Virus record (IMG/VR): IMGVR_UViG_2609460219_000007
Length of the DNA stretch: 44,629 nucleotides
Direction: 5' to 3' (one strand)
Origin: a virus
Taxonomy: Duplodnaviria > Heunggongvirae > Uroviricota > Caudoviricetes
Under the pieces are notes generated by a model. The model did not search any database and had not been told where the DNA came from. It was given only the letters and a program-made list of their open reading frames with translations. This document shows positions 1,587 to 27,675 of the stretch, piece by piece; within the stretch, counting starts at the first letter, position 1, and each line of letters starts with the position of its first letter. A program made the translations under genes and the position numbers.

Positions 1587-1658
1587 CGATTTCTTTATCT
1601 CTTACATCAGACGAGCGCCGGTTGCAGAATACCAGTCACAACCGGCGACAGTTGAACA

Positions 1659-4130: not shown

Positions 4131-4222
4131 TTTGTTTTACCTCATTACAGATTTAAGGGTGAACAAATCCCTGCCATTGCTGGCATATAAGAATGAAATC
4201 GGATGTTTATTACGGAACTGTT

Positions 4223-4414
4223 TTAAAGACCTGCCGGGATTTCGTTATTATCCTGGTGAATAACTTTATCGACCGGGTAACAGTTACCGGGAATTTTCTG
4301 TTCGGTTGCTGCAGTCATACACTCCTGCATTGTCCTGTGAACACTGACTGCAATATCAACTGGCTCTCCGGAAACAAGAAAAACTGTCAGAACAAGCGCA
4401 AATGCTGAATTCAT
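4223..4414 (-). CDS. ydfD: Small N-terminally hydrophobic protein, YdfD-like by position and length (63 aa)
   Basis: Starts at MNSAFALVLTVFLVSG... with ATG overlapping the dicB stop; synteny dicF-dicB-ydfD as in K-12 Qin; identity to YdfD not verified by search. Confidence 0.5.
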   Translation of the reverse strand: MNSAFALVLTVFLVSGEPVDIAVSVHRTMQECMTAATEQKIPGNCYPVDKVIHQDNNEIPAGL

Positions 4415-4599
4415 TGTGCACATCCTTTTGGCATCAGACGTAAACGAGCCAGCATTGAAACAATGCATATTTTATTTAATAGCTCCCGTTCTTGTTTTCT
4501 CTTGTTAATGGCATCTTCAGTAAATACAGGGTTACTGATAGTGACACCAATTTCAAAACAACCTTCAGACGTATTAACGTTTGGTAATAACGTTTTCAT
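4411..4599 (-). CDS. dicB: Cell division inhibitor DicB (MinC-activating)
   Basis: 62-aa product MKTLLPNVNTSEGCFEIGVTISNPVFTEDAINKRKQERELLNKICIVSMLARLRLMPKGCAQ matches the recalled DicB sequence and length; directly downstream of DicF. Confidence 0.85.
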   Translation of the reverse strand: MKTLLPNVNTSEGCFEIGVTISNPVFTEDAINKRKQERELLNKICIVSMLARLRLMPKGCAQ

Positions 4600-4770
4600 T
4601 ATCGCGTCCTCAACAATGAATTTTGTGATGCAGTGCCTGGTGCCTCCAGGTGACGTTAACCAGTTAACAATTAACGCCGGATACAGAGAATCCACCCATA
4701 ACACTGTTTTTGGTTTTAACTGTTCCGCGTGCGCTTAGCCGCATTCACCGCATCACAAAATTCACTTTAA

Positions 4771-4826
4771 AAACGGCGGCAGAGCAGTCACGGAGTAAAA
4801 CTGATACCGCCAAACGTCACCAGAAA
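4771..4826 (-). ncRNA. dicF: DicF small regulatory RNA
   Basis: Minus-strand sequence TTTCTGGTGACGTTTGGCGGTATCAGTTTTACTCCGTGACTGCTCTGCCGCC matches the recalled 53-nt DicF sequence almost base for base; located between the ydfABC-like region and dicB as in Qin. Confidence 0.8.
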
Positions 4827-5147
4827 ATTGATAACAGAGGGCGTTGCAGCGGGGTTGTCACTTAAGCGTATGGTCAACCTGACAACTCGGTGTCCTCAAC
4901 GGGGAAGGAATAACCCCGCCATACTTACCGCCGCGCCATTTCGCGGGTTGCCACAACCGGAAGCGCACGGTCGAATTAAATTTAACGACACCGTACAGTG
5001 AGACGAACTTCGCCGTGCGCTTTCGTGTTGTGTGCCTGCTTTTAACCACGTCAGGCGAGGTGGTATCCTTAAAATCACCACAGTTTTAAGGATTCATTAA
5101 GCAATGTCGCAACCACCAATAAATCCGCTTAAGAACATGAAAATTGA

Positions 5148-5663
5148 TTACTGGTATAAAGCGCTTACAGTTGTTGGCGCTGCGTTGTTTGTCTTTAATG
5201 GAACGTCNTTTTTTTGACAGATATCCCGTTGTTCCATTGGGTTTTTTGTCCTCCGGCATCNTTTTTTATTGGTTTGGGGGAGTGGATTAATCACCCTCTC
5301 AAAGTGAGATTTATTGGTCCTGGAGTTTGGACTCGTGGATATAATCGTTCTTCGTGCGCACTCGGTATCATCTTCGACATACTTGGTTGTTTCCTGATTG
5401 TTACAGGAGTCGTCAAGTTCTTCTGATGTAAAACCGCAAATGGGGCACGTAACGGGAATTTTGAAAAGCGTTTCTCCGGGTTCCAGAACAAAATTTTCTG
5501 CGGTCTGATTTTGCTTCTCATATTTGTGCTCCGCGTCATTGTGAGAGCACATTCTTATTCTGAGTGCCTGTTTAAACTCACTGAAGCTGAGAGCTTCTTC
5601 GCCTTCGGCAAGGCCTTCGAAGTATTCTTCGTAAGCCTTTTCCATGATTGTGTCGAAATCCAT
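5148..5663 (-). CDS. Hypothetical protein in the ydfB/ydfC position (contains a CPICGF Cys motif); 3' end uncertain
   Basis: ORF starting MDFDTIMEKAYEEYFEG... right after the ydfA-like stop; extends through two N-containing codons (5259-5261 could be TGA), so the true length is unknown. Confidence 0.35.
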   Translation of the reverse strand: MDFDTIMEKAYEEYFEGLAEGEEALSFSEFKQALRIRMCSHNDAEHKYEKQNQTAENFVLEPGETLFKIPVTCPICGFTSEELDDSCNNQETTKYVEDDTECARRTIISTSPNSRTNKSHFERVINPLPQTNKKXCRRTKNPMEQRDICQKXDVPLKTNNAAPTTVSALYQ

Positions 5664-5664
5664 A

Positions 5665-5820
5665 TCACTCACCTGAGTTTCTTTCCAGCCAGCGACGGGC
5701 ACCATTTTCGGTTTTAAACGTTTTGCTTTTGGTATACGTCATCGCGGTGAACGTGCCGTCCTGGTTGGGGAACACGCCGTACACCAGAGATTCGTTGTTG
5801 CCAAGATCGATAGTATCCAT
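5665..5820 (-). CDS. ydfA: Small protein, YdfA-like by position and length (51 aa)
   Basis: MDTIDLGNNESLVYGVFPNQDGTFTAMTYTKSKTFKTENGARRWLERNSGE; first gene downstream of dicA on the same strand as in Qin. Confidence 0.5.
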   Translation of the reverse strand: MDTIDLGNNESLVYGVFPNQDGTFTAMTYTKSKTFKTENGARRWLERNSGE

Positions 5821-5986
5821 GCTGACCTCATTTCCCCTTAACGCTGGGGTAGCGGAACTGTTTGCTGAGAACACCGTGCGGTGTGTTGATGCAAATAAGA
5901 TTAGCCATGGCTAACATATAGGTCAAGTGATTTTGTATGTTATGGCTAACATGATTGATGTGGTAAAAAATAACTCATTGATGATG

Positions 5987-6394
5987 TTATCTTTTATTTG
6001 TCCGCTGACGGGCTTTTAGTAATTCTTCAAAGAGTTTATTGAAGTTTTTTACTCGAGCTCGCATTTCGGCGAGCTGGGTATCCTGTTCTGATTCTGGCAG
6101 TGCATTAAACAGCTCAAGGAGCTCTAGTTCTTTGGGGGATAAGGCAACTGGCTTCTCAACAGGTGGTGTTGGTTGCTTGTCTTCATCGCCAAATAGAATC
6201 CATGTTGGTGAGCATTGCAATACTTTGCTGAGGGCAAAAAGGTTCTTTCCTGTAGGTTCACTATCATCCCGTTCCCATTGTGATACAGACACATGGGAGA
6301 TTTTCANGGCTTTAGCAAGAGACCTTTGGGTGTGTTTGAGGTTTTTCCGACGATACCTAATGCGTTCGCCGATAGTTAAATTTTTTGTTTCCAT
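5987..6394 (-). CDS. dicA: HTH-type repressor DicA (CI-like)
   Basis: 135-aa product METKNLTIGERIRYRRKNLKHTQRSLAKA.KISHVSVSQWER... matches recalled DicA; divergent from dicC. Confidence 0.9.
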   Translation of the reverse strand: METKNLTIGERIRYRRKNLKHTQRSLAKAXKISHVSVSQWERDDSEPTGKNLFALSKVLQCSPTWILFGDEDKQPTPPVEKPVALSPKELELLELFNALPESEQDTQLAEMRARVKNFNKLFEELLKARQRTNKR

Positions 6395-6477
6395 AGTTAG
6401 CTAATGCTAAATCGTATTGACTATGTTTTTGTTAACATCTATTTTGTTAGTCATAACTAACAATAAAGGTGTTTTAA
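6395..6477. promoter_or_regulatory. dicA/dicC divergent promoter-operator region
   Basis: 83-bp AT-rich intergenic region between divergent repressor genes; perfect inverted repeat TTGTTAGT-CATA-ACTAACAA at 6444-6463 and palindrome TTAGCTAA at 6397-6404. Confidence 0.6.
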
Positions 6478-6708
6478 ATGCTTAAAACTGACGCTCTTTT
6501 GTATTTCGGTTCAAAAACAAAACTTGCACAAGCAGCAGGTATTCGTTTGGCTTCGCTTTATAGCTGGAAAGGGGATTTAGTTCCCGAAGGTCGCGCGATG
6601 CGTCTACAGGAGGCATCTGGCGGGGAGCTTCAGTATGATCCCAAAGTTTATGATGAATATCGTAAGACGAAGCGGGCGGGGCGGTTGAACAATGAAAATC
6701 ACTCCTGA
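6478..6708 (+). CDS. dicC: Cro-like repressor DicC
   Basis: 76-aa product MLKTDALLYFGSKTKLAQAAGIRLASLYSWKGDLVPEGRAMRLQEASGGELQYDPKVYDEYRK... matches recalled DicC and length. Confidence 0.85.
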   Translation: MLKTDALLYFGSKTKLAQAAGIRLASLYSWKGDLVPEGRAMRLQEASGGELQYDPKVYDEYRKTKRAGRLNNENHS

Positions 6709-7213
6709 ACAGGCTCGTGAGGCTCTGGATGNCTGGATATGTCGACCAGGAATGACACAGGAGCAGGCGACGATATTAATCACTGAAGCATTCTGGGCTT
6801 TGAAAGAGCGCCCGAACATCGATGTTCAGCGTGTCACAGATGAAGGTGGCGCGGTTGATCAGCGAGCGCTTGGCGTTAATCGAGTGAAGATATTCGAACG
6901 CTGGAAGGCTATCGACACCAGGGATAAGCGTGAAAAGTTCAGGGCGCTAGTGCCTGCGATTATGGAGGCTATCCGGATTAGTGATTTCAGGTTGTATCGT
7001 GAGATCAGTGATGGAAAAAGTATTACGTACATGATCGCCGGGTTAAATAAAGAATATGGCGATGTGGTGGAATCCGGACTGCTTTTTGCAGATCCTGCCG
7101 TTGTAGATCGTGAAACTGACGAACTTATAGAAAAAGCAATTGCTTTCAAGCTTGCGTATCGACAGCAATACCAACAAAAAGCTGGATGGAATTATGAGTC
7201 TTCTTTTTGCTGA
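6692..7213 (+). CDS. Hypothetical early protein (CII position)
   Basis: 173-aa ORF overlapping the dicC stop, MKITPEQAREALD...; no motif recognised; one N. Confidence 0.5.
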   Translation: MKITPEQAREALDXWICRPGMTQEQATILITEAFWALKERPNIDVQRVTDEGGAVDQRALGVNRVKIFERWKAIDTRDKREKFRALVPAIMEAIRISDFRLYREISDGKSITYMIAGLNKEYGDVVESGLLFADPAVVDRETDELIEKAIAFKLAYRQQYQQKAGWNYESSFC

Positions 7214-8159
7214 ACGCCCACTGGTTATAAACACGCAGCTGGCAATGAAAATTGGCTTAAACGAAGCCATTGTTTTGCAACAACTGCACTACTGGTTGAG
7301 AGATACCAACTCCGGCATGGAATGTGATGGTGTTCGCTGGATTTATAACACAACGGAACAATGGCTGGAACAGTTCCCATTCTGGTCAGAGTCAACGTTA
7401 AAGCGCGCGTTTGCAAGTCTGAAAACGCTGGGGCTTTTGCGTTGTGAAAAGCTCAATAAATCAAAGCGCGATATGACCAATTTCTACACGATCAACTACG
7501 GGAGCGAGCTTTTAGATGGTGGCAAATTGAGCGAATCCATCGGTTTAAAATGCGCCGCTCCATCAGGTCAAAATGACACGATGGAAGAGGTCAAAATGAA
7601 ACGCTCCATTGGTTCAAAACGACTCAATGTCATCGGGTCAAAATGGCCTGATGATCTTACAGAGAATACAACAGAGATTACTACAGAGAATAAAAAGACT
7701 TCTCGTCCGGAAGCTTCGCAACCGGACCCGCAGACGGTTGAACAGGATTTTTTAACCCGACACCCTGACGCGGTTGTGTTCAGTGCGAAAAAACGCCAGT
7801 GGGGCAGCCAGGAAGATTTGGCGTGTGCGCAGTGGATCTGGGGGCGAATCGTGAGTCTTTACGAGCAGGCCGCCAGCGATGATGGCGAGATTTCGCGACC
7901 GAAAGAACCCAACTGGACCGCATGGGCCAACGACGTGCGCACAATGCGGATGCTGGATGGCAGAACTCACAGACAAATTTGTGAAATGTTTGGTCGGGTG
8001 CAGCGGGATCCATTCTGGGTAAAAAATATCATGAGTCCGTCAAAGCTTCGCGAAAAATGGGATGAACTGGTTATCCGCCTGGGGCGTTCGTCTGTACAGC
8101 GTTGTGTGAATCATATTTCTGAGCCGGATACCGAAATTCCGCCGGGCTTCAGGGGGTAA
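7194..8159 (+). CDS. Replication initiator / replisome organizer (lambda O-like role)
   Basis: N-terminal winged-helix-like segment (PLVINTQLAMKIGLNEAIVLQQLHYWL...), then a linker that contains an iteron array in the DNA, then a C-terminal domain; start chosen at MSLLFAERP (7140 also possible). Confidence 0.65.
   Translation: MSLLFAERPLVINTQLAMKIGLNEAIVLQQLHYWLRDTNSGMECDGVRWIYNTTEQWLEQFPFWSESTLKRAFASLKTLGLLRCEKLNKSKRDMTNFYTINYGSELLDGGKLSESIGLKCAAPSGQNDTMEEVKMKRSIGSKRLNVIGSKWPDDLTENTTEITTENKKTSRPEASQPDPQTVEQDFLTRHPDAVVFSAKKRQWGSQEDLACAQWIWGRIVSLYEQAASDDGEISRPKEPNWTAWANDVRTMRMLDGRTHRQICEMFGRVQRDPFWVKNIMSPSKLREKWDELVIRLGRSSVQRCVNHISEPDTEIPPGFRG
7542..7700. repeat. Putative phage replication origin: five ~23-bp-spaced GGT(C/T)AAAA(T/C)G iterons plus an A-rich ACAGAGA-repeat segment
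   Basis: Iterons at 7542, 7566, 7589, 7611 and 7636, followed by tacagagaatacaacagagattactacagagaataaaaag; lies inside the linker of the initiator gene as lambda ori lies inside O. Confidence 0.6.
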
Positions 8160-8199
8160 GTGTTAATTTCTGGTCATGAGGTAATTTTCAGGAGGGCTT

Positions 8200-8622
8200 G
8201 TGGCAAAAGTTTTTACACAAGAAGAGCGGGAAAAAATTAAAGGGCAGGTTGTTGAACTCGTACGCCGGAGTGGGCGTGAGACGTTACGGCAACTGGAAGT
8301 CAAGACAGGTGCGACAAGATATCTGATGAGCGTTCTCGCAAGAGAGCTGGTTGCCAGCGGCGATGTATACAACTCTGGTTACGGGTTATTCCCGTCTGAA
8401 CAGGCGCGTAAGGACTGGCAAAATGCCCGTAAAAAGCTCTCAAGGGTAAAGCTGAAGGAACCATCTGCGGTTGATCCGGACCTTATCTGGTCATTACCTG
8501 ACGGAGAAATACGTCGTTACGACAGGCGTCATAATATGATTTGTACTGAGTGTCGTAAAAGCGAAGTTATGCAGCGCATATTGTCGTTTTATCAGGGGGA
8601 TGTCCGGTATTTATTGAAGTGA
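8200..8622 (+). CDS. Hypothetical protein (replication-module neighbour)
   Basis: 140-aa ORF with GTG start preceded by AGGAGG at 8185-8190; no Walker motif, so not an obvious helicase loader. Confidence 0.5.
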   Translation: MAKVFTQEEREKIKGQVVELVRRSGRETLRQLEVKTGATRYLMSVLARELVASGDVYNSGYGLFPSEQARKDWQNARKKLSRVKLKEPSAVDPDLIWSLPDGEIRRYDRRHNMICTECRKSEVMQRILSFYQGDVRYLLK

Positions 8623-10194: not shown

Positions 10195-10694
10195 CGCAAT
10201 CTCCTAAATTTACTTACTAAAGTCAGTGTATTTTTATCATGTTGCTTCATTGTGTATGAAAGTAACATTGGTTGTCCATGCTCGTATGCCTCTCATAATT
10301 CACAAATTTGCGAATATTTTTTATAAAAATTCAAAACTGATAGGGTGACACAATCAAAATTCACAAAGTGAACCTGCTTCTAATGTGGTTACGGTACGAT
10401 CATGTGGGCAATTTCCATTGCTGAAAACTCCGGGATCAACCATGATGTATGAGCTGTAGTATGAAGTCTCTTGCTATCCGGTTAAGTAAATGTCTGCTTC
10501 TCACTCAAAGCGGACTAGAAGGTTAGCTTGCGTCGGACTTGGCGTATTTAAAGAAGTGCTGGTGGTAACTGGTTGTTGTGTTCCATTTCTACAAAACAAA
10601 ATCACAGAAACTATACCCAATAGTTATATTGAATCAATGATGAGACAGCCTCATATTTATCAGAACTGGTGTACGTCCAATACAGGAGGTTGTC

Positions 10695-10784
10695 GTGCTG
10701 GTTCTCAAATGTGCGCTAGCTATTGCGGCTGTAATGGCAATTTATTGTCTTGCTGTTGTTCTTACGGATCGCCTTTCTGATTGA
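10695..10784 (+). CDS. Candidate 29-aa hydrophobic peptide (Hok-like transmembrane segment or type I toxin-like)
   Basis: GTG start 5 nt after a perfect AGGAGG (10684-10689); product (M)LVLKCALAIAAVMAIYCLAVVLTDRLSD is almost entirely a TM helix; about 210 bp upstream of hok. Confidence 0.3.
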   Translation: MLVLKCALAIAAVMAIYCLAVVLTDRLSD

Positions 10785-10995
10785 TTTTATATTGGCGAGG
10801 TGACGGGAGTTAAGTAGAATTGCTGCGGGTGCTTGAGGCTATCTGCCTCAGGCATGAACACCAACGGCAGATAGAGAAAAGCCCCAGTTAACATTACGCG
10901 TCCTGCAAGACGCTTAACATTAATCTGAGGCCAATTTCATGCTAGACATATGTAGGTTAGCCTCTTACGTGCCGAAAGGCAAGGAGAAGCAGGCT

Positions 10996-11151
10996 ATGAA
11001 GCAGCAAAAGGCGATGTTAATCGNCCTGATCGTCATCTGTTTAACCGTCATAGTGACGGCACTGGTAACGAGGAAAGACCTCTGCGAGGTACGAATCCGA
11101 ACCGGCCAGACGGAGGTCGCTGTCTTCACAGCTTACGAACCTGAGGAGTAA
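10996..11151 (+). CDS. hokD: Hok/Gef family type I toxin (HokD/RelF-like)
   Basis: 51-aa product MKQQKAMLI.LIVICLTVIVTALVTRKDLCEVRIRTGQTEVAVFTAYEPEE matches recalled HokD; AAGGAG RBS; in-frame upstream extension (MLDICRLAS...) in the ORF track is probably not translated. Confidence 0.85.
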   Translation: MKQQKAMLIXLIVICLTVIVTALVTRKDLCEVRIRTGQTEVAVFTAYEPEE

Positions 11152-11220
11152 GAGACCCGGCGAGGGAGAAATCCCTCGCCACCTCTGATGTGGCAGGCAT
11201 CCTCAACGCACCCGCACTTA

Positions 11221-11251
11221 ACCCGCTTCGGCGGGTTTTTGTTTTTATTTT
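11221..11251 (+). terminator. Rho-independent terminator after hok
   Basis: ACCCGC-TTCG-GCGGGT hairpin followed by TTTTTGTTTTTATTTT. Confidence 0.7.
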
Positions 11252-11366
11252 CAACGCGTTTGAAGTTCTGGACGGTGCCGGAATAGAATCAAAAATACTT
11301 AAGTAGCGCGCAGGGATAAGAGGGATGGTCCCTTAAAGGGAGAGCTAATTATCCGGAAGGATTCTG

Positions 11367-20067: not shown

Positions 20068-20290
20068 GGGTCCTCCCAGTGGGGGTCCCTGCCACGGGGC
20101 GGGAGCGTCGCGGAAAAAGGCTAGTTTTTGCATTTCCATGGCGGCGGCAGCATGTTTGGTAATTTATTGATAATTAAAAGTTATTTCTCTTTTTACCTGT
20201 ACAATATTTTTTTCTCCCTGTCATTAGACCAGTTTACAATTAATTGAAATATATAAATAAACATGATTTTCACCTGCCAGATGGAGTTGC
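20068..20290. repeat. cos-like packaging region of the prophage (copy 1 of a three-member repeat family)
   Basis: Block GGGTCCTCCC...CTGCCACGGGGCGGGAGCGTCGCGGAAAAAGGCTAGTTTTTGCATTT... directly upstream of terS; near-identical blocks recur at 28657 and 31194. Confidence 0.6.
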
Positions 20291-20292
20291 TT

Positions 20293-20820
20293 ATGTCAAA
20301 TGTGAGCGGGATCGGTGATGCTTATTACTGGAGTGTTTTTAAAATCGCTGAGGCCTTTGGGCTTCACCGGGACACAGTAAAAAAACGGCTTCTCGCGGCC
20401 AACACTCCTGTGGCTGCGACTGTCAGGGGGAACCCCGTTTACGCCCTGCAGCATGTCGGGCCAGCCCTGTTTAGTGTGAAGCATGAGGCAGCAGACTCTG
20501 TTCATGATCCATCCCGTATGGAGCCGAAAGAGAGAAAGGACTGGTACCAGTCTGAAAATGAAAGGATCAAGCTGGAAAAGGAGCAGCGAAAACTCATCCC
20601 CGTTGATGAAGTAGTCATCGTCTATTCGTCCATGAGAAAGGCTGTCGTCCAGGTTCTGGAGACAATTCCGGATGTTCTTGAACGCGATTGCGCCCTGACT
20701 CCTCAGGCCGTCGGCGTTGTACAGCAGGCAATTGATGACCTGCGATACACTCTTCAGGAAAAATCCTACGAGGCTTGTGCTGCTGAATTAATTCCTGATG
20801 AGGAAGGAGAGAGTCTCTAG
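20293..20820 (+). CDS. Terminase small subunit (Nu1-like)
   Basis: 175-aa product from MSNVSGIGDAYYW...; GGAG RBS; immediately followed by terL; homologous to a second copy at 31419-31904 (shared ...ME..RK.WYQSE.ER.K.E.E...LIP.D.V...). Confidence 0.8.
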   Translation: MSNVSGIGDAYYWSVFKIAEAFGLHRDTVKKRLLAANTPVAATVRGNPVYALQHVGPALFSVKHEAADSVHDPSRMEPKERKDWYQSENERIKLEKEQRKLIPVDEVVIVYSSMRKAVVQVLETIPDVLERDCALTPQAVGVVQQAIDDLRYTLQEKSYEACAAELIPDEEGESL

Positions 20821-20828: not shown

Positions 20829-21821
20829 ATGGGTTTTTCATCAGCCCGAAATTTGGGAAGGGACATATCGGCAGGATTTTCCCCACCACGTCGCATGCCG
20901 ATTTCGGAGGCTGTTAAAAAATTCATGCGTGTTCCCAAGGGGGCTGGTAACTCGGTGCCATGGGATCCTGAACTGACACCCTACATCATTGAGCCCATGA
21001 ACTGCCTGGCATCGCGTGAATACGATGCGGTGATTTTTGTTGGTCCTGCGCGAACAGGGAAGACCATTGGTCTGATCGATGGATGGATTGTCTATACCAT
21101 CGTTTGCGATCCTTCGGACATGCTCGTTGTGCAGATGACCGAAGATAAGGCCCGCGAGCATTCTAAAAAGCGCCTCGACAGAACGTTCAGAAGCAGTGCG
21201 GCGGTAAAGAAAAGAATGAGTCCACGTCGTAACGACAATAATGTCCATGATAAGACGTTCAGGGATGGCTCGTTCCTTAAAATTGGTTGGCCCTCGGTCA
21301 ACATTATGTCGTCGTCGGATTACCGGTTTGTCGCCTTAACCGATTACGACCGTTTTCCGGAGAATATCGACAGCGAGGGTGATGGTTTCTCCCTGGCCTC
21401 AAAACGTACCACCACATTTATGTCCGCCGGGATGACTCTGGTGGAGAGCTCGCCGGGACGTGACATCTGCGACAGCAAATGGCGACGTAAGTCGCCTCAT
21501 GAAGCGCCACCGACGACTGGTATTCTTTCCCTTTACAATCGTGGTGACCGCCGCCGCTGGTACTGGTCATGTCCGCACTGCGGTGAATATTTTCAGCCAG
21601 CCATGGATGCCATGACCGGCTACCGTAATGAACCGGATCCCTTTAAAGCCAGTGAGGCGGCGTATCTACTTTGCCCGCACTGCAGCGGCATTATCACTGC
21701 GGAGAAAAAGCGTGAGCTCAATAGTGCAGGAGTCTGGTTGCGTGAAGGTCAGGTCATTGATCGTAACGGCAACGTTTCCGGTGAACCGCGCCGCTCCCGT
21801 ATCGCCAGTTTCTGGATGTAG
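20829..21821 (+). CDS. Terminase large subunit (TerL/gpA-like), N-terminal ATPase portion; reading frame interrupted at 21819
   Basis: 330-aa ORF with Walker A-like VGPARTGKT and a CPHCGEY...CPHCSG zinc-finger region; ends ...RIASFWM* exactly at the left junction of the inserted element; the C-terminal portion resumes at 32564. Confidence 0.8.
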   Translation: MGFSSARNLGRDISAGFSPPRRMPISEAVKKFMRVPKGAGNSVPWDPELTPYIIEPMNCLASREYDAVIFVGPARTGKTIGLIDGWIVYTIVCDPSDMLVVQMTEDKAREHSKKRLDRTFRSSAAVKKRMSPRRNDNNVHDKTFRDGSFLKIGWPSVNIMSSSDYRFVALTDYDRFPENIDSEGDGFSLASKRTTTFMSAGMTLVESSPGRDICDSKWRRKSPHEAPPTTGILSLYNRGDRRRWYWSCPHCGEYFQPAMDAMTGYRNEPDPFKASEAAYLLCPHCSGIITAEKKRELNSAGVWLREGQVIDRNGNVSGEPRRSRIASFWM

Positions 21822-21982
21822 GGTACATTTCTTACCTGTTTTTATGTTCTGGTGTCGTTTTGTAGTCTTTTCAATGAGTTGTGATTTTTTGTGTTTCCTC
21901 TCTTTACTTGATAATGAGTTAGTTTATCGCTTGTTATCGACTTGAAAGGACTACATGACGGACTAAAAAATGAGGGCGATAG

Positions 21983-23156
21983 ATGCCGGTAAAGCCATTA
22001 ACTGTGACTGAAGTTAAGGGAATGAAACCACGTGAAAAGGACTATGCCGTTTATGATGGGTTCGGTTTATTGCTGAATGTGAGTAAAGCTGGTGGGAAAG
22101 TGTGGCGTTTCCGTTATAGCCATCCGATAACGAAGAAACGGCAGACATACACGATAGGGCGTTTTCCTGAATTCTCACTCGCGGAAGCACGGGAAGTACG
22201 TGATGAACTTCGGCGAATGATTGCACGTGGAGTTGATCCAGTGACAGAGAAGAAAAATCGTAAAATTGAGATGTCACTAAAAAATCTACAAACATTTGAA
22301 GCTGTTGCTAATGCATGGATCGCTTTTAAAAAGGGATCGGAATTGCGGAAACCTACGCTGTATAATATCGAATATGAAGTATACAAATATCTTGTTCCTT
22401 TCTTTGGTAAGTACAGCATAGAGAAAATTACAGCGCCAGTAGCTATTAATGCTCTGGATGCCGTATCCGATAAGAATGCGTTGCAAAAAAAANTTAATAT
22501 CAAGATTAAATGAAATTATGAATTACGCTGTAAATTGTGGAGCATTGAAAACGAATCCATTACTTAAGATAAAAACTGCATTCACAGGAAAGAAAAATAA
22601 ATCATTAGCTGCACTACCTGTTGAAAGATTGCCTGAATTTCTGAGTTGGTGGGATAGTGTGCCTCATAAGTATCAAATAGCTCACAATGCACTTTTATTC
22701 CAGATATTGACAATGGTCAGGCCAGGTGAGGCGATTAAAGCAGAGTGGTCCGAGATTGATTTTGATTCTGGCTTGTGGATTATCCCCGCGCATAAAATGA
22801 AATGCCATCGTGAACATGTTGTGCCTCTCTCATCACAGGCTATTAGAATCCTAAGAACAATGCAGGAAATAAAAAGAGGGCGTTATATATTTTTTTCCTC
22901 CAGAACAAAAGATGCTCCTATGGGAAAGAATACTATCAATACCCCAATTGCTGCCAGCAAGTTCAAAGGGATTGTAACGTTACACGGTTTTCGTTCGATG
23001 TGGAGTACGCTTTTAAATGAGGAGGGTTTTAACCCTGATGTTATTGAGGCTGCATTAGCACATAAAAGTGGTGATAAAATAAGAGATATTTATAATAGAA
23101 CTACTTATTTAGAACAACGCAAAATTATGATGCAATNGGGTAGGAGATTTTTTTGA
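21983..23156 (+). CDS. P4-type tyrosine integrase (apparent frameshift at an A-run containing N at 22493)
   Basis: Two overlapping ORFs (21983-22513, 22449-23156) that together read as one integrase: N-terminal arm-binding-type domain, C-terminal catalytic ...HGFRSMWSTLLNE...ALAHKSGDKIRDIYNR...; sits at the left end of the element. Confidence 0.8.
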
Positions 23157-23235
23157 TGAGGCGAGAAAAGGGGTAATTAATAGATCCGGTGGTAAGAAAG
23201 GTTTGAGAATAGTAAATGGTTGAGGAGTTCAGCAA

Positions 23236-23439
23236 ATGAATACCAATGAAGATATTTTATTTACTAAAGACGTAATGAAAATTTTGCGCTATGGGGCAAT
23301 GAGCGCATTCATCAATTTCTGGAAAGATGAAAATAATGGTTTTCCTCAACCGTTCAGAATTGGGCGGCGGCATACCTGGCACCGTAGAGATGTAGAGGCA
23401 TGGTTAGATAAACAACGAGAACAGGCCAATCCCCACTAA
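23236..23439 (+). CDS. AlpA-family transcriptional regulator / excisionase-like
   Basis: 67-aa small HTH protein directly downstream of the integrase (int-alpA arrangement of P4/PICI elements). Confidence 0.7.
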   Translation: MNTNEDILFTKDVMKILRYGAMSAFINFWKDENNGFPQPFRIGRRHTWHRRDVEAWLDKQREQANPH

Positions 23440-23453
23440 TAATATCTTTCATA

Positions 23454-23478
23454 CCCCGCACGCAATGCGGGGTTTTTT
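23454..23478 (+). terminator. Rho-independent terminator after the alpA-like gene
   Basis: CCCCGCA-CGCAA-TGCGGGG hairpin followed by TTTTTT. Confidence 0.7.
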
Positions 23479-23497
23479 GTATGTGAGGTAAAAAACG

Positions 23498-24079
23498 ATG
23501 AATAAAAATATTGCCGTGACGGGCAAGGGGTACGCTCGTTCAGTAAAAAAATTCTGCGATATTCGTGATCTTGTCGTTCTGCGCTTTGATGGCGTGGATG
23601 TTCGTGTGGTGTATCTGAACGGCGATCCGTGGTTTATTGCAAAGGATGTTTGTGAAGCTCTGGAAATAAGCAACTCACGCGATGCTCTAAAAGCTCTGGA
23701 TGTGGATGAGAAGAATACCGTCGCTTTAAGCTACGGTATTCGCGGAAATCCAAATCATAGCGTCGTTTCTGAATCTGGTTTTTACAAGCTGATCGCCAGA
23801 AGTCGCAAAGCTGTTACTCCTGGCACGTTCGCCCATCGTTTCAGTAACTGGGTATTCAGGAATGTGATACCAGGTATCAGAAAAACGGGGGCTTATGGTA
23901 TCCCGTGGGGGGCATTACAGGATTTTTCCCGCCGTAAAGAGCAATATCAAATAAGTGCCAGCGAGAAGGGGAGGGAGCTACAGGCATGTAAGCGCAAAAA
24001 GCGTGAGCTGGAGGAAGAAGAAAAAAGGCTGATACGTGAATATCAGCCTGAGTTTTACTTTGGTGAGCGTATTCAGTAA
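23498..24079 (+). CDS. Bro-N domain protein (antirepressor-like)
   Basis: 193-aa product; N-terminal ...FDGVDVRVVYLNGDPWFIAKDVCEALEISNSRDALKALDVDEK... is Bro-N-like; C-terminal charged coiled-coil. Confidence 0.65.
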   Translation: MNKNIAVTGKGYARSVKKFCDIRDLVVLRFDGVDVRVVYLNGDPWFIAKDVCEALEISNSRDALKALDVDEKNTVALSYGIRGNPNHSVVSESGFYKLIARSRKAVTPGTFAHRFSNWVFRNVIPGIRKTGAYGIPWGALQDFSRRKEQYQISASEKGRELQACKRKKRELEEEEKRLIREYQPEFYFGERIQ

Positions 24080-24254
24080 CCACGCGCATTGCTGATTATA
24101 CGATACATCGTGTTAACCGGGAAGCTCCCCACCAGCAAGGCAAAATCTTCTGCTAAAAAATGACATATGAGCAGCCGTCCTGAAAGCATGAAGTTTTGCA
24201 GGAATAGATGCTGCAGTTCTTTATTTTATCAATTGGACTTTAGATAAAAGTAAA

Positions 24255-24273
24255 GGCGACCGAGGTGGTCGCC
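24255..24273. terminator. Bidirectional intrinsic terminator between convergent genes
   Basis: GGCGACC-GAGGT-GGTCGCC hairpin with T-runs on both sides. Confidence 0.6.
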
Positions 24274-24295
24274 AGTTTTATTTTTATATTTTTCT

Positions 24296-24703
24296 CTATT
24301 GCATCAACAATGAATGTCTTATCCACATTACGAGGGATGGAATAATTTTTATGTATCCGCCATATGCCCATATAATGGTGCCAAAAACAGTTAGTCCAAC
24401 CCCGAGTACTTCAGCTTTTATTTCCTCTCTGACCTCAACTCGAGCTTTAGCTAAGTTTTCTTCTCGTATCTTTTGTGATTCTTCCGCAGACAATGGCGGG
24501 CCAGTTACGCCACTGCGTGAATTAATTTCAGCTTCGCGATTAGATAATTTTTTTAAAGTTGTGAACTTGATTGTATACAACAATCCAAAAACTGAAATAA
24601 TTGCACCTGAGCTGGCGAATAGATTCATATCATTAAGATATTGGCCGAACNAAAAAGCTTGCTCCACAAAAAACACATAATATGGCAATGGATGTTTTTG
24701 CAC
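24296..24703 (-). CDS. Small two-TM membrane protein (AT-rich cargo gene)
   Basis: ORF with hydrophobic helices (SGAIISVFGLLYTI; VLGVGLTVFGTIIWAYGGYIKII) flanking a charged segment; N at 24651 makes the 5' end uncertain (alternative start MNLFASSG at 24634). Confidence 0.45.
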   Translation of the reverse strand: MQKHPLPYYVFFVEQAFXFGQYLNDMNLFASSGAIISVFGLLYTIKFTTLKKLSNREAEINSRSGVTGPPLSAEESQKIREENLAKARVEVREEIKAEVLGVGLTVFGTIIWAYGGYIKIIPSLVMWIRHSLLMQ

Positions 24704-24771
24704 CGAGTATTTTCAGTAATATTGTTCTAAATCTCTTCATTGTTAATATATCCTATCATAGAAGTAGTAAT

Positions 24772-24966
24772 TCACCCCTTAGGTTCGATACCGCGCCGCT
24801 TTAGTTCGGAGCGCCCTAACTCTTTAAGCCAGTTAGCAAGGCTTACACCATCATTATTAGCCTCGCTATCAAACTGTTCTTTCAGTTCTGGAGCTATACG
24901 CATATGGAAAGGGGGAGCCTTTCCTGTCCCTTTGGGTTTTTTATCGCGTTTAATTATTGTTGACAT
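24772..24966 (-). CDS. Ribbon-helix-helix (CopG/Arc-like) DNA-binding protein
   Basis: 64-aa product ...HMRIAPELKEQFDSEANNDGVSLANWLKELGRSEL... with RHH-like pattern; start abuts a 12-bp inverted repeat. Confidence 0.55.
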   Translation of the reverse strand: MSTIIKRDKKPKGTGKAPPFHMRIAPELKEQFDSEANNDGVSLANWLKELGRSELKRRGIEPKG

Positions 24967-25009
24967 GTGTACACCTATAGCGTTATGTTTTCATTCGATA
25001 GGTGTACAC
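24967..25009. promoter_or_regulatory. Candidate operator: inverted repeat GTGTACACCTAT ... ATAGGTGTACAC
   Basis: Perfect 12-bp arms at 24967-24978 and 24998-25009, immediately upstream of the RHH gene in a divergent intergenic region; further ACACGTGT palindrome at 25014-25021. Confidence 0.5.
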
Positions 25010-25301
25010 CTTAACACGTGTGCATTTAATAACGCAACGCCCCGCAGTGCTGGAACACATGCAGGGCGTCTAACCACCAACGATAGCAACAGTATCGAGG
25101 TAGCTATGTTAAATCATACCACACACCCGCAAGGGCGGGACTCGCACAACCTGAATAAATACATCTGGCGTTTTATCGCCCTGAGCACCGCACAACCGCG
25201 CGTGATTCACATCGAGGCCACCAGCGAACAGGAAGTCCGCCAGCAATCCACGGTTGGCTGCGTGATGGTATTCACTGCCTGTATTCGTCAGGGGGCGCAG
25301 C

Positions 25302-25502
25302 ATGCACAATTATGAAGCGCACTTACCTGTAGTTCTTAATGTGCCGTCAGATTATACGGGACGCGTTTTGATATTTCTCGATAAAGGGAAAGTGAAATCA
25401 CAATGCCGCCTTAGAAATAATGAGGTTGTTGGTTCTCTGGCTTTTTTTTCTGAGGCCTGTATTCGTGCCGGAATAAAACTTGAATCACTGACAGGAAAAT
25501 AA
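25302..25502 (+). CDS. Hypothetical protein
   Basis: 66-aa ORF upstream of the primase gene. Confidence 0.35.
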   Translation: MHNYEAHLPVVLNVPSDYTGRVLIFLDKGKVKSQCRLRNNEVVGSLAFFSEACIRAGIKLESLTGK

Positions 25503-25507
25503 AAACC

Positions 25508-25807
25508 ATGAAAAAGAAAAATTCTGGCTTTACTGCCAGTGACTTCTCTCGGCCTGAAATCCGCCCCGGCGATATTTTCCGTGATAACTACGGCGGTACG
25601 GTAACGATTAAAGGCGTGGCAGAACGGCGCATCACCTACCGNCGTGAAGGTTACGAATATGATTGCGTGATGCCTGTTTATCAATTCCGGCGTGATTTTT
25701 CCCTGGTACATGCTGCGCCCCGCAGTAAACCCACCAGCAGGGAAAAAGTGCGGGGAAATATCCAGAAAATGAAAAGCATGATTAACGCATTCAGGGGCAA
25801 AAAATGA
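25508..25807 (+). CDS. Hypothetical protein
   Basis: 99-aa ORF overlapping the primase start (ATGA); one N. Confidence 0.45.
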   Translation: MKKKNSGFTASDFSRPEIRPGDIFRDNYGGTVTIKGVAERRITYXREGYEYDCVMPVYQFRRDFSLVHAAPRSKPTSREKVRGNIQKMKSMINAFRGKK

Positions 25808-27663
25808 AGCTTGCACCGAACTTAAAAAAACAGCCACGCGACAGACTGACAGAGGTAATCATCTTTGCGGGTAGTGATGCGTGGAGCCATGCGAAAGAGT
25901 GGCAGGAGTNGGCAGGTAAACATATTGCTGCCGACAACGTGCCGCCTGTTGTGCTGGCTGATGAGCAACTGAAAAACATCACCGACTACCGGATCATTGA
26001 TGATGGTCGTGAATGTGTACGCATTTATTGCGCAGGCCATATCACAGAGCGCAGTCTTACGCAGATCGCCACCTTACTTGCAGTTGCTGGTGTGCAAAAT
26101 GCACGTTGTTGGCGGAGCTTTGCAGATAAGGAATCGCCGGAGGACTGGTCGCCGCGCCTTGCCGGGCTGAAAGCTGAATATGAACGCGGAGAAAGTCTGG
26201 TTATGAGCAGCAGGGAATTAGCAGAAAGTAAAAAAGTAGTTGAACTGCCTGTAAAGAAAAAAGAGCGGATAAAAGACGATAAGGCTTCATCACTGGCGCT
26301 TAACCAGATGGGAGCAAGTCAACGCGGTGAAGTCCTCCTGGCACGTTATGGCGGTGAACTGGCGATTCATGCCGACTCTGACACTGTTCACCATTACAAC
26401 GGCGTTGTATGGGAGCCAGTACAGGATAAAGAGTTACAGCGTGCTATGGCGCAGATTTTCATTGATGCGGAGATCAGCTATTCGCAGAACGCCATTAAAT
26501 CGGCGGTCGATACCATGAAGTTAAGCTTGCCTGTGATGGGGAATACAGCCCGTAACCTGATTGGATTCAGTAACGGGGTATTTGATACCCGGACAGGTAA
26601 TTTTCGGAAGCATAACAAAAATGACTGGTTGTTAATTGCCAGTGAATTACCGTTCAGNCCACCAGCAGAGGGGGAAACGCTGGCAACACATGCGCCGAAT
26701 TTCTGGAAGTGGTTGCGCCGTTCGGTGGCTGAGAATGACCGCAAGGCAGATCGTGTACTGGCGGCATTATTCATGGTGCTGGCGAACCGGTACGACTGGC
26801 AGTTATTCATTGAGGTAACAGGGCCGGGGGGAAGCGGTAAAAGCGTGATGGCGGAGATTTGCACCATGCTGGCGGGTAAGGCTAATACAGTATCAGCAAG
26901 CATGAAGGCGCTGGAAGACGCAAGGGAACGCGCGTTAGTGGTTGGCTTTTCGCTGATTATCATGCCGGATATGACCCGCTACGCTGGTGATGGGGCAGGG
27001 ATTAAGGCCATTACAGGCGGTGACAAGGTGGCAATTGACCCGAAACACAAAGCCCCCTATTCAACGCGTATTCCGGCAGTAGTGCTGGCGGTTAACAATA
27101 ACGCCATGTCATTCAGTGATCGCAGCGGGGGGATCTCACGTCGTCGGGTGATATTCAATTTTTCGGAAGTTGTACCGGAGAACGAACGCGATTCGATGCT
27201 GGCGGAAAAAATAGAAGGTGAGTTGGCGGTAGTGATTCGTCATCTGCTTACACGATTTGCTGATCAGGACGAAGCCAGACGCCTGTTATATGAGCAGCAG
27301 AAATCTGAAGAAGCACTGGCGATAAAGCGAGAGGGGGATTCGCTGGTGGACTTCTGCGGCTATCTCATGGCATCGGTAATGTGTGATGGCCTGTTAGTGG
27401 GTAATGCTGAAATTGTGCCATTCAGNCCACGCAGGTATCTCTATCATGCCTATCTGGCTTATATGAGGGCACATGGGTTTGGTAAACCTGTAACACTGAC
27501 GCGCTTCGGTAAAGATATGCCGGGGGCAATGGCGGAATATGGCAGGGAGTATATGAAACGGAAAACGAAGCACGGTTTGCGTTCAAACGTGACCCTGACG
27601 GAGGAATCAGAAGACTGGATGCCATCATGTGTATCGGTCACTAATGACGATAGCAAAAATTAA
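25804..27663 (+). CDS. Primase/replicative helicase (P4 alpha-like, P-loop NTPase)
   Basis: 619-aa product with Walker A GPGGSGKS and a Walker B-like hydrophobic stretch; followed by an iteron array. Confidence 0.8.
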   Translation: MKLAPNLKKQPRDRLTEVIIFAGSDAWSHAKEWQEXAGKHIAADNVPPVVLADEQLKNITDYRIIDDGRECVRIYCAGHITERSLTQIATLLAVAGVQNARCWRSFADKESPEDWSPRLAGLKAEYERGESLVMSSRELAESKKVVELPVKKKERIKDDKASSLALNQMGASQRGEVLLARYGGELAIHADSDTVHHYNGVVWEPVQDKELQRAMAQIFIDAEISYSQNAIKSAVDTMKLSLPVMGNTARNLIGFSNGVFDTRTGNFRKHNKNDWLLIASELPFXPPAEGETLATHAPNFWKWLRRSVAENDRKADRVLAALFMVLANRYDWQLFIEVTGPGGSGKSVMAEICTMLAGKANTVSASMKALEDARERALVVGFSLIIMPDMTRYAGDGAGIKAITGGDKVAIDPKHKAPYSTRIPAVVLAVNNNAMSFSDRSGGISRRRVIFNFSEVVPENERDSMLAEKIEGELAVVIRHLLTRFADQDEARRLLYEQQKSEEALAIKREGDSLVDFCGYLMASVMCDGLLVGNAEIVPFXPRRYLYHAYLAYMRAHGFGKPVTLTRFGKDMPGAMAEYGREYMKRKTKHGLRSNVTLTEESEDWMPSCVSVTNDDSKN

Positions 27664-27675
27664 ACTTATGGAATA

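What the first reader, a model, noticed from the sequence alone, without database searches (positions are those of the whole stretch)
24296..25021. AT-rich RHH-regulator plus small membrane protein cassette in the satellite accessory slot
Between the alpA/Bro-N genes and the primase, on the opposite strand, are an RHH DNA-binding protein (24772-24966) and a roughly 110-135-aa protein with two hydrophobic helices (24296-24703). Both are AT-rich and bounded by a bidirectional terminator. The region between alpA and the primase is where E. coli PICIs carry anti-phage cargo, and a regulator-plus-membrane-effector pair is a common abortive-infection layout. I could not assign the membrane protein to a known family.
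Basis: inference. Interest (0 to 1): 0.6.

Follow-up and report, generated by a model that had tools for sequence, protein, structure and literature searches.

The report
Satellite repressor gene with membrane-protein cargo
A small DNA-binding gene that probably keeps a phage satellite silent is followed by a swappable cargo slot, which here holds a membrane protein from an uncharacterised family that may protect the cell against phages; this function is untested.

Summary
Both genes are real, but they are not a two-gene cassette.

**Membrane gene.**
- It is 147 aa (24296-24740, minus strand), not 110-135 aa.
- It has three hydrophobic helices, not two.
- The 'n' at 24651 is an extra base that breaks the reading frame.

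**RHH gene (24772-24966).**
- It is an Arc/Mnt-type repressor and a core gene of int-alpA-primase satellites: up to 336 of 5426 E. coli genomes and 44 Enterobacterales species loci.
- It is always divergent from the Icd-like/primase operon.
- Two inverted-repeat operators bracket that operon's promoter. Their sequence changes together with the RHH beta-strand residues across lineages.

**The slot.**
- The position just after the RHH gene varies widely: membrane protein (4 E. coli genomes), SWIM protein (at least 41), a RelB/YafQ pair, other small membrane proteins, or nothing.

**The membrane protein.**
- It belongs to an orphan three-helix family with no Pfam, PHROG, NCBIfam or PADLOC match and no informative fold match.
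- It is under strong purifying selection.
- It also occurs without the RHH gene, for example as a single-gene cassette in a Vibrio integron.

**Best reading.** A repressor operon carrying a stand-alone cargo gene, laid out like lambda cI-rexAB or P22 mnt-sieA. A role in phage exclusion is inferred only. The host element is a helper-embedded PICI, a type already published.

The parts
24255..24273 (.). Bidirectional intrinsic-terminator-like hairpin. It separates the convergent alpA/Bro-N and RHH/membrane-gene transcription units.
   Evidence: stem of 7-8 pairs, 6 of them G-C, with T-runs on both strands.
24296..24740 (-). Cargo gene: a 147-aa three-helix inner-membrane protein of an orphan family. 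The extra 'n' at 24651 breaks the frame in the window.
   Evidence: true ORF; family size; AlphaFold pLDDT 89.6; dN/dS 0.03-0.12; no family match.
24741..24771 (-). 31-nt spacer between the RHH stop and the membrane-gene start. It carries AGGA 10 nt before the ATG and no terminator, so co-transcription is inferred.
   Evidence: Sequence. No terminator-like site was found there.
24772..24966 (-). Arc/Mnt-type ribbon-helix-helix protein of 64 aa. It is a core satellite regulator and the inferred repressor of the replication operon.
   Evidence: Arc/Mnt similarity; conservation; beta-strand/operator covariation.
24965..24978 (.). Proximal operator arm (aTGTGTACACCTAT). It overlaps the RHH start codon and lies in the spacer of the rightward promoter.
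   Evidence: 12-nt perfect inverted repeat; 14 nt with one mismatch; conserved position, lineage-specific sequence.
24998..25011 (.). Distal operator arm (ATAGGTGTACACCT). It contains the palindrome AGGTGTACACCT and lies just downstream of the -10 of the rightward promoter.
24960..24989 (+). Predicted promoter of the Icd-like/DUF4222/primase operon: TTGACA, 18 nt, TATGTT. The -35 hexamer is the reverse complement of RHH codons 1-2 plus the first base of codon 3.
   Evidence: 10 of 12 match. TTGACA at the same place in 43 of 47 distinct loci, with a TAnnnT hexamer 16-18 nt downstream in 42 of them.
25037..25070 (-). Conserved hairpin followed by a T-rich run on the RHH-sense strand, in the leader of the rightward operon. 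Its role is unknown.
   Evidence: present in all lineages, with compensatory stem changes; -29 kcal/mol, z = -2.7; no Rfam match.
25106..25315 (+). Icd-like gene, the first gene of the operon that the RHH protein is inferred to repress (context).
   Evidence: NCBIfam phage_ICD_like, E=6.6e-15.
23236..24079 (+). alpA (23236-23439) and a Bro-N anti-repressor-like gene (23498-24079). They converge on the RHH operon (context).
   Evidence: Bro-N E=5e-18; PHROG 2593 anti-repressor E=9e-83.

Best explanation
The region holds a core regulator gene followed by a stand-alone cargo gene, not a two-gene system.

**RHH gene.** The RHH protein is an Arc/Mnt-type repressor. It is inferred to bind two inverted-repeat operators, at 24965-24978 and 24998-25011. 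These lie within and just downstream of the promoter of the Icd-like/DUF4222/primase operon. Binding would keep satellite replication silent while the satellite is quiescent.

**Cargo slot.** Because the RHH transcript is the one expected to be on in that state, the position just after the RHH gene has become an insertion slot for cargo.

**Cargo in this window.** The slot holds a 147-aa inner-membrane protein with the N-terminus inside, three membrane helices and a long cytoplasmic helical hairpin. It is probably co-transcribed with the RHH gene and made continuously. My preferred function is protection against phages at the membrane, either a block to phage DNA entry or a membrane-acting abortive response.

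**What is shown and what is inferred.**
- Shown: gene structure, conservation, slot variability, operator covariation and independence of the two genes.
- Inferred: DNA binding, repression and co-transcription.
- Inferred from context only: the anti-phage role, to which I give about 0.4.
For: **RHH gene is core**
- Its DNA plus the promoter region occurs in up to 336 of 5426 E. coli genomes. The full cassette occurs in only 4.
- 44 loci in other Enterobacterales species carry it.
- It is always divergent from the Icd-like/primase operon.

**RHH protein is an Arc/Mnt-type binder of the local repeats**
- Similarity to Arc and Mnt.
- A perfect 12-nt inverted repeat lies upstream.
- In every lineage two copies of a lineage-specific repeat sit at about -45 and -1 from the RHH start codon. 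Their sequence follows the beta-strand residues:
  - PPFHMRI with GGTGTACACC
  - PQFKMRI with GGTGGCCACC
  - PTFQIRI with GTACGTAC
  - PMFNVRI with GGTATAGACC
  - PPFQFRL with GTGTAATGTGT
- The rightward promoter lies under these repeats and is conserved in 43 of 47 distinct loci.

**The slot is variable**
- The basal layout has nothing between the RHH gene and the convergent alpA.
- Elsewhere the slot holds the membrane protein, a SWIM protein (at least 41 E. coli genomes), a 158/176-aa one-helix membrane protein, 41- and 65-aa ORFs, a RelB+YafQ pair, a 166-aa three-helix protein, or membrane proteins plus DUF4225.

**The membrane gene is a functional, independent unit**
- dN/dS is 0.03-0.12.
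- The family has 70 clusters.
- The fold prediction is confident.
- It is uncoupled from the RHH gene in L013.
- It is a single integron cassette in Vibrio.
- It is fused to an Mrr-type nuclease next to an HTH gene in P0089.

**Layout precedents**
- P22: sieA, orf59a and mnt on one strand, divergent from arc-ant.
- Lambda: cI-rexA-rexB.
- PICIs are known carriers of immune genes (PMC11364771).
Against: - There are no experimental data on either protein.
- The membrane protein matches no known defence or exclusion family:
  - The best PADLOC hit has E=0.03 over a charged helix only.
  - hhalign probability against SieA, RexB and SieB is below 1%.
- None of the alternative cargo genes in the slot is a recognised defence gene.
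- The RHH gene's own promoter was not found by the consensus scan, so autoregulation and constitutive expression are assumed.
- In studied Gram-negative PICIs AlpA is an activator and no repressor has been needed to explain induction (PMC6092414).
- In the window as given, the membrane ORF is frameshifted by the 'n'.
Confidence: 0.6

Rival explanations
1. The RHH gene and the membrane gene form one two-gene abortive-infection or toxin-antitoxin-like cassette. The RHH protein would be the dedicated regulator or antitoxin, and the membrane protein the toxic effector released on infection.
For: - The genes are adjacent, on the same strand and 31 nt apart.
- The pair recurs in three diverged versions: RHH 100/61/51% identical with membrane protein 100/81/70% identical.
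- NCBI names the RHH protein a 'HicB family antitoxin'.
- A real RelB/YafQ pair occupies the same slot in Yersinia aldovae.
Against: - The RHH gene occurs without the membrane gene in more than 330 E. coli genomes and in 43 of 44 species loci.
- The membrane gene occurs without an adjacent RHH gene in L013, L077, L076 and L078.
- The RHH operators sit on the primase-operon promoter, not on a promoter specific to the pair.
- The HicB match is below the Pfam cut-off (18 bits against 21) and covers only the RHH part. There is no HicA gene.
Confidence: 0.1
2. The membrane protein is cargo, but its role has nothing to do with phage defence. It could be an envelope or stress function that helps the host. 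It could instead help the satellite or its helper, for example by changing lysis timing or countering a host defence.
For: - Distant family members sit in ordinary chromosomal settings, between putA and an epimerase gene, with no phage genes nearby.
- No defence-family match exists.
- PICIs also carry virulence and regulatory cargo (PMC6092414, PMC11773190).
Against: - Members are found in the kinds of mobile, fast-changing loci that often carry defence genes: a satellite variable zone, an integron cassette, next to toxin-antitoxin genes, and fused to an Mrr nuclease.
- A lysis role does not fit a gene that lies on the strand expected to be expressed in the quiescent state and is present in only 4 of about 336 related E. 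coli satellites.
Confidence: 0.25
3. In this particular genome the membrane gene is a frameshifted pseudogene and does nothing.
For: The window has an extra position ('n') at 24651 that splits the ORF.
Against: - The position is an ambiguity code, one of 32 scattered through the window.
- All 11 near-identical copies elsewhere have the intact 147-aa ORF.
- No other difference from strain IMT16316 exists across the 901 bases compared.
Confidence: 0.05

Closest known systems
Phage P22 immI region (sieA, orf59a and mnt on one strand; arc and ant on the other)
   Same: - An RHH maintenance repressor is transcribed divergently from an operon whose promoter it covers.
- Accessory genes, including an inner-membrane superinfection-exclusion protein, lie downstream on the repressor's strand.
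- The RHH protein aligns with Mnt and Arc.
   Different: - The controlled operon here encodes the Icd-like protein and the primase, not an antirepressor.
- The membrane protein is not homologous to SieA (hhalign probability 0.3%).
- sieA has its own promoter after a terminator. Here no terminator separates the two genes.
Lambda cI-rexA-rexB operon
   Same: Exclusion genes, including a small multi-helix inner-membrane protein (RexB, 144 aa), are co-transcribed with the repressor in the silent state.
   Different: - The repressor is of a different fold (HTH/LexA-like).
- RexB needs the sensor RexA, whereas this membrane gene travels alone.
- There is no sequence similarity to RexB (probability 0.2%).
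Helper-embedded PICIs and their 'Bro zone' (PMC10111431)
   Same: - The element in the window is integrated inside the prophage terminase large-subunit gene.
- It shows the Integration, Bro, Replication and Late order.
- The cassette lies in the dynamic Bro zone.
   Different: In the parts of that paper I searched and read (term search, gene-content section), there is no mention of the conserved RHH gene, its operators, or a cargo slot after it. It attributes immunity in this zone to Bro-network proteins and CI/C4-like RNAs. None of those RNAs is detectable here.
Immune-gene hotspots of PICIs and P4-like satellites (PMC11364771, PMC9122126)
   Same: Satellites carry variable anti-phage cargo at fixed positions bounded by core genes.
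   Different: - The positions reported are the 5' or 3' ends, next to pri, or near cos in P4.
- The slot directly after a divergent RHH gene was not among the positions named in the passages I retrieved.
- Its cargo is not recognised by PADLOC.
Stl/Rpr master repressors of Gram-positive PICIs
   Same: A repressor gene is divergent from the excision/replication operon, and accessory genes can lie on the repressor side (PMC6092414).
   Different: - The fold and size differ.
- No helper-encoded antirepressor is known here.
[quoted passage not shown]

Membership tests
Arc/Mnt (MetJ/Arc superfamily) ribbon-helix-helix repressors | A strand-helix-helix domain of about 45 residues with detectable sequence similarity to Arc or Mnt. 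| tested here: met
   PDB 1b28 Arc E=7e-4, residues 12-59. PHROG 228 E=9e-6. hhalign to P22 Mnt probability 71%, E=3.7e-5.
Arc/Mnt (MetJ/Arc superfamily) ribbon-helix-helix repressors | Repeated or palindromic operator next to the gene, overlapping the promoter it controls. | tested here: met
   Two inverted-repeat arms bracket the -10 of the rightward promoter. Repeat sequence covaries with beta-strand residues in at least 6 lineages.
Arc/Mnt (MetJ/Arc superfamily) ribbon-helix-helix repressors | Demonstrated operator binding and repression. | not testable with these tools
   Needs EMSA or footprinting, plus reporter assays.
HicB antitoxin (HicAB type II toxin-antitoxin), the name NCBI gives the RHH protein | HicB N-terminal toxin-neutralising domain and an adjacent hicA toxin gene. 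| tested here: not met
   The protein is only 64 aa. The Pfam HicB hit scores 18 bits against a cut-off of 21 and covers only the RHH part. No HicA-like neighbour is present. Downstream genes differ between loci.
Two-gene toxin-antitoxin or abortive-infection module (regulator plus membrane effector) | The two genes are inherited together as an obligate pair. | tested here: not met
   The RHH gene occurs without the membrane gene in more than 330 E. coli genomes and 43 of 44 species loci. The membrane gene occurs without an adjacent RHH gene in L013, L076, L077 and L078.
Known membrane exclusion proteins (P22 SieA, lambda RexB, lambda SieB) | Sequence or profile homology. | tested here: not met
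   hhalign probabilities are 0.3%, 0.2% and 0.1%.
Known membrane exclusion proteins (P22 SieA, lambda RexB, lambda SieB) | Small multi-helix inner-membrane protein encoded downstream of the maintenance repressor and expressed in the silent state. | tested here: inconclusive
   Topology and position fit. Expression in the silent state is inferred, not shown.
Catalogued anti-phage defence systems (PADLOC-DB v2) | Significant match to a defence-protein model. | tested here: not met
   The only hit is HEC-01B, E=0.03, 12 bits, over the charged helix. Homologue P0010 has no hit.
Helper-embedded PICI (PMC10111431), the host element | [quoted passage not shown] | tested here: met
   The prophage terL is split at 21821 and about 32560, and the reading frame resumes. 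RefSeq annotates both terL halves as partial. The zones are in the expected order.
P4 CI / P1 C4 / IsrK immunity RNAs (reported in some PICI Bro zones) | Match to Rfam C4 or isrK models. | tested here: not met
   There is no such hit at E up to 1 in 21800-29300.

The most novel reading that the evidence does not exclude
Three linked claims remain possible. First, the 59-64-aa Arc/Mnt-like protein is the missing maintenance repressor of a large group of Gram-negative PICIs, including helper-embedded and capsid-forming ones, and its operator specificity has diversified into immunity types. Second, the position after it is an unrecognised cargo hotspot expressed in the silent state. Third, the 147-aa three-helix protein represents a new single-gene, membrane-level anti-phage family that also moves as integron cassettes.
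Probability: 0.25. Interest if true: 0.65.

Novelty: new variant of a known kind. Interest (0 to 1): 0.45.

Why it matters
**A testable repressor candidate.** For Gram-negative PICIs the published view is that AlpA activates the cycle and that a global repressor is 'unclear' (PMC6092414). A conserved RHH gene whose operators covary with it and sit on the replication-operon promoter gives a concrete candidate. It also suggests immunity types that could be tested by swapping beta-strand residues.

**An annotation error.** The same gene is currently annotated as a 'HicB antitoxin' or 'YlcI/YnfO family protein' and is counted as accessory or toxin-antitoxin cargo (PMC13612085). That would be a systematic mislabel.

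**A place to look for new functions.** The slot after the RHH gene holds small genes, mostly unannotated and often encoding membrane proteins. It is a compact place to search for new exclusion or defence functions that current defence finders miss.

**A new family to describe.** The membrane-protein family has about 70 clusters, no Pfam entry and a confident predicted fold, so it is ready for a family description and a simple phage-plating test.

Tried and rejected
**Searches on the membrane protein that found nothing**
- Pfam, PHROG, NCBIfam and PADLOC: nothing significant.
- Profile search against PDB sequences: nothing.
- Foldseek against BFVD and PDB with the first, low-confidence model: nothing below E=0.1.
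- The AlphaFold-database library was not available.

**Ideas tested and dropped**
- A P1 c4 or P4 CI-type immunity RNA upstream of the Icd-like gene: no Rfam hit. The two MicX hits are only the terminator hairpin, far below threshold.
- Homology to SieA, RexB or SieB: none.
- EcCIMP1 (PMC11773190) occupies the same thrW/proA site as the homologue-bearing islands and gives unexplained superinfection immunity. It does not carry this cassette.

**Steps that failed or were uninformative**
- I guessed the CFT073 coordinates to see whether the prototype EcCICFT073 has the RHH gene. I retrieved the wrong region, a prophage at icd. That question is untested.
- The broad alignment A4 was too diverse for the locus scan. 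The closer alignment A3 was used instead.
- Several distant family members lie on contigs too short to show their context.
Full report
**1. What is at 24296-25021**

On the minus strand there is a 64-aa ORF at 24772-24966. Downstream of it is an ORF that the mechanical list gives as 135 aa, from a GTG at 24703.

The window carries an 'n' at 24651. I aligned 24200-25100 with E. coli IMT16316 (NZ_CP023815). The two are identical at every base except that the 'n' is an extra position. Without it the ORF runs from the ATG at 24740 to 24296 and encodes 147 aa. RefSeq annotates this product as WP_050489335. Three further complete E. coli genomes match the cassette at 99.4-99.9% identity over its full length, and seven IMG/VR contigs encode the intact 147-aa protein. 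The window holds 32 such n's.

A bidirectional terminator-like hairpin lies at 24255-24273, between the membrane gene and the convergent Bro-N gene.

GC content is 37.2% for the membrane gene. It is 45.6% for the RHH gene, against 45.9% for the whole satellite. So only the membrane gene is AT-rich.

**2. The host element**

The window is a lambdoid prophage. Its terminase large-subunit gene is split at 21821 and about 32560 by a satellite of roughly 10.7 kb.

The satellite carries, in order:
- int, alpA and Bro-N
- the membrane gene and the RHH gene, on the opposite strand
- an Icd-like gene, a 66-aa ORF, DUF4222 and a D5-type primase
- SSB and a copy of the cos-proximal region
- a prohead protease/major capsid fusion and a DUF1441 small terminase

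This is based. Relatives sit in a prophage major capsid gene (L003, L004) or at tRNA-Pro (L002).

This is the helper-embedded PICI type described in PMC10111431. That paper divides such elements into Integration, Bro, Replication and Late zones. The finding lies in the dynamic Bro zone. This part is already known.

**3. The RHH gene is a core regulator**

Similarity:
- A profile of 17 homologues matches Arc repressor over its whole length (PDB 1b28, E=7e-4).
- It matches Mnt more weakly. hhalign against P22 Mnt gives 71% probability.
- PHROG 228 'Arc-like repressor' matches at E=9e-6.
- The Pfam HicB match is below threshold and covers only the RHH part. The NCBI name 'HicB family antitoxin' is therefore not supported.

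Distribution:
- The RHH gene plus the region upstream of it (24772-25100) is found in up to 336 of 5426 complete E. coli genomes at about 85-90% identity. The whole cassette is found in 4.
- A degenerate-pattern scan of one genome per species found 44 loci across Enterobacterales.
- A 59-aa sister clade, annotated 'YlcI/YnfO family', is present in a further 159 E. coli genomes.
- In every locus I inspected in detail, the gene is divergent from an Icd-like/DUF4222/primase (or RepA helicase) operon, and alpA converges on it.

**4. Operators and promoter**

Between the RHH gene and the Icd-like gene there is a perfect 12-nt inverted repeat: GTGTACACCTAT at 24967-24978 and ATAGGTGTACAC at 24998-25009. 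It extends to 14 nt with one mismatch.

The best promoter-like site in the region is on the plus strand: TTGACA (24960-24965), 18 nt, TATGTT (24984-24989). Its -35 hexamer is the reverse complement of the first RHH codons (ATG TCA A). The same TTGACA is present in 43 of 47 distinct loci. A TAnnnT hexamer lies 16-18 nt downstream in 42 of them. One repeat arm lies in the promoter spacer. The other lies just after the -10.

Across lineages the repeat keeps its position, at about -45 and -1 from the RHH start codon. Its sequence changes, and it changes together with the residues of the RHH beta-strand, the part that reads DNA in Arc and Mnt (established knowledge of the family). The pairings are:

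| RHH beta-strand | Repeat sequence |
|---|---|
| PPFHMRI | GGTGTACACC |
| PQFKMRI | GGTGGCCACC |
| PTFQIRI | GTACGTAC |
| PMFNVRI | GGTATAGACC |
| PIFSVRL | GTATGGACC |
| PPFQFRL | GTGTAATGTGT |

This covariation is the strongest computational support that the RHH protein binds these repeats. From their position I infer that it represses the replication operon.

[quoted passage not shown] I found no paper describing this RHH gene as a regulator. A 2026 survey lists it among accessory or toxin-antitoxin genes (PMC13612085).

**5. The slot after the RHH gene**

In the basal layout the RHH gene stands alone, and alpA converges on it within about 50-75 bp. This is seen in Xenorhabdus, Pantoea, Enterobacter and Yersinia loci.

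In other loci a gene follows the RHH gene on the same strand, at a gap of -3 to 67 bp:
- the 147-aa membrane protein (window; L005-L012; L035 Citrobacter; L069 and L070)
- a SWIM zinc-finger protein (at least 41 E. coli genomes)
- a 158/176-aa one-helix membrane protein (L082, L084, L085)
- 41-aa and 65-aa ORFs (L083)
- a RelB+YafQ pair (L053)
- a 166-aa three-helix protein (L039)
- two small membrane proteins plus DUF4225 (L025)
- unannotated 87-, 89- and 192-aa proteins

None has a significant PADLOC match. The gene between alpA and the slot also varies: Bro-N, DUF2971, others or none. So this is a real cargo slot, but it holds no recognised defence system.

**6. The membrane protein**

Family:
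- Close homologues form 17 clusters at 90% identity, all in Enterobacterales and none with a Pfam domain.
- An HMM search of 1.8 billion representatives finds 70 clusters at E of 1e-3 or better.
- Conserved features are DMNLFASSGA..FGL..IKFTT in helix 2, a SRSGVTGPP loop, and GT.IWAYGGYI in helix 3.

Structure:
- With the 28-sequence alignment, AlphaFold gives pLDDT 89.6 and pTM 0.76.
- The model has helices 15-34, 39-77, 85-129 and 133-145.
- That is three membrane helices, with helices 2 and 3 extending into a long helical hairpin.
- Charge distribution puts the N-terminus and the 53-residue loop in the cytoplasm.

Selection:
- dN/dS against orthologues is 0.03-0.12, with synonymous sites saturated.

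Independence from the RHH gene:
- In Xenorhabdus ishibashii the gene lies between int and alpA on the int strand, while the RHH gene stays next to the primase.
- In Vibrio jasicida a distant member is a single cassette flanked by attC-like repeats, in an array of 11 such repeats.
- Other members sit alone near toxin-antitoxin genes.
- One member is fused to a C-terminal Mrr-type nuclease beside an HTH gene.

Linkage where it does occur:
- Where the membrane gene follows an RHH gene, the pair exists in three diverged versions. RHH identity is 100/61/51% and membrane-protein identity is 100/81/70%.
- The cargo is therefore more conserved than its neighbour.

**7. Mechanism**

Shown: see the list under 'What is shown' in the best explanation; sections 1-6 give the calls.

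Inferred:
- The RHH protein binds the repeats and shuts the Icd-like/primase promoter.
- The RHH gene and the membrane gene are co-transcribed. The spacer is 31 nt, with AGGA before the ATG and no terminator.
- The membrane protein is therefore made while the satellite is silent.

This matches the layout of lambda cI-rexA-rexB and P22 mnt-orf59a-sieA, where exclusion proteins ride with the maintenance repressor.

From this, and from the kinds of loci the family occupies, I favour a membrane-level anti-phage role, at about 0.4. Nothing distinguishes an entry block from an abortive mechanism, and a non-defence role remains a serious rival. The occurrence of the gene alone in several settings argues that it is not a toxin needing a cognate antitoxin.

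A speculative addition: the conserved face-to-face arrangement of alpA and the RHH gene, together with the Bro-N 'anti-repressor' homologue after alpA (PHROG 2593, E=9e-83), could be how helper-induced AlpA activity overcomes the RHH protein. This is untested, and Bro-N is not present in all relatives.

**8. Verdict**

The ORF length, helix count and AT-richness needed correction.

There is an accessory slot and unknown-family cargo. The 'regulator plus membrane effector' pair model fails the co-inheritance test, and the RHH gene is a core regulator.

Novelty is moderate. The host element type and the general idea of satellite cargo are known. Three things are not described in the papers I could search: the RHH/operator module as a candidate PICI repressor, the slot after it, and the orphan membrane family.

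Noticed in passing
window 20829-21821 and about 32560-33676; satellite about 21822-32555: The satellite is inserted inside the prophage terminase large-subunit gene. The left junction is TTCTGGATG|TAG and the right junction is CTGGATGGAAGGG. The reading frame resumes as IASFWMEGPAAAYQTWA. This is a helper-embedded PICI as in PMC10111431. Relatives L003 and L004 sit in the prophage major capsid gene and carry their own capsid and decoration genes.
   Followed up: partly
window 25037-25070 (minus-strand sense): A hairpin followed by a T-rich run lies on the RHH-sense strand, between the operators and the Icd-like ribosome-binding site. It is conserved in all lineages with compensatory stem changes. 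It folds at -29 kcal/mol (z = -2.7). There is no Rfam hit, including C4 and isrK. It could terminate an antisense RNA that covers the Icd-like start, much as sar does in P22.
   Followed up: partly
window 20068-20300 vs 28657-28888; 28649-28725 vs 31186-31262: The region upstream of the prophage small-terminase gene (cos-proximal) is duplicated inside the satellite at 91% identity. A 77-bp piece is repeated again at 96% identity before the satellite's own DUF1441 small-terminase gene.
   Followed up: no
window, 32 positions (e.g. 22493, 24651, 25642, 26658): Ambiguous bases are scattered about every 1.4 kb. The one at 24651 is an inserted position relative to near-identical genomes. The one at 22493 coincides with a frame break in the integrase. 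Others read through in frame as X. ORF calls in this window should not be trusted near an n.
   Followed up: partly
IMG/VR loci L062-L068 compared with window 21983-27663: The int-alpA-BroN-membrane gene-RHH block encodes proteins 96-100% identical to the window's. The adjacent primase is 100%, about 86% or 48% identical, and the flanking prophage terL is 99% or 75% identical. This suggests a recombination breakpoint at the RHH/Icd-like boundary and movement between helper backgrounds.
   Followed up: no
L001 (NZ_CP023815) 10581-11278: In strain IMT16316 an IS1 element has replaced alpA and the C-terminal part of the integrase, so that copy is probably immobile. The RHH/membrane cassette there is intact.
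   Followed up: no
L060 6001-7542 (metagenome) protein P0089: A 513-aa protein has an N-terminus matching the three-helix family (E about 1e-6) and a C-terminus that is an Mrr-type restriction endonuclease domain. It lies directly after an HTH_3 regulator gene. This is a membrane-anchored nuclease with a defence-like architecture.
   Followed up: partly
L077 (Vibrio jasicida MSCF01000058) 1-8552: This is a chromosomal integron array with 11 attC-like repeats. One cassette (1106-1552) encodes a distant member of the membrane-protein family.
   Followed up: partly
L053 (Yersinia aldovae) 496-1071: A complete RelB/YafQ toxin-antitoxin pair occupies the slot directly after the RHH gene.
   Followed up: no
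32 plasmid records in E. coli: The 59-aa RHH sister clade ('YlcI/YnfO family protein') also occurs on E. coli plasmids of about 80 kb, not only in chromosomal satellites. These may be phage-plasmids.
   Followed up: no
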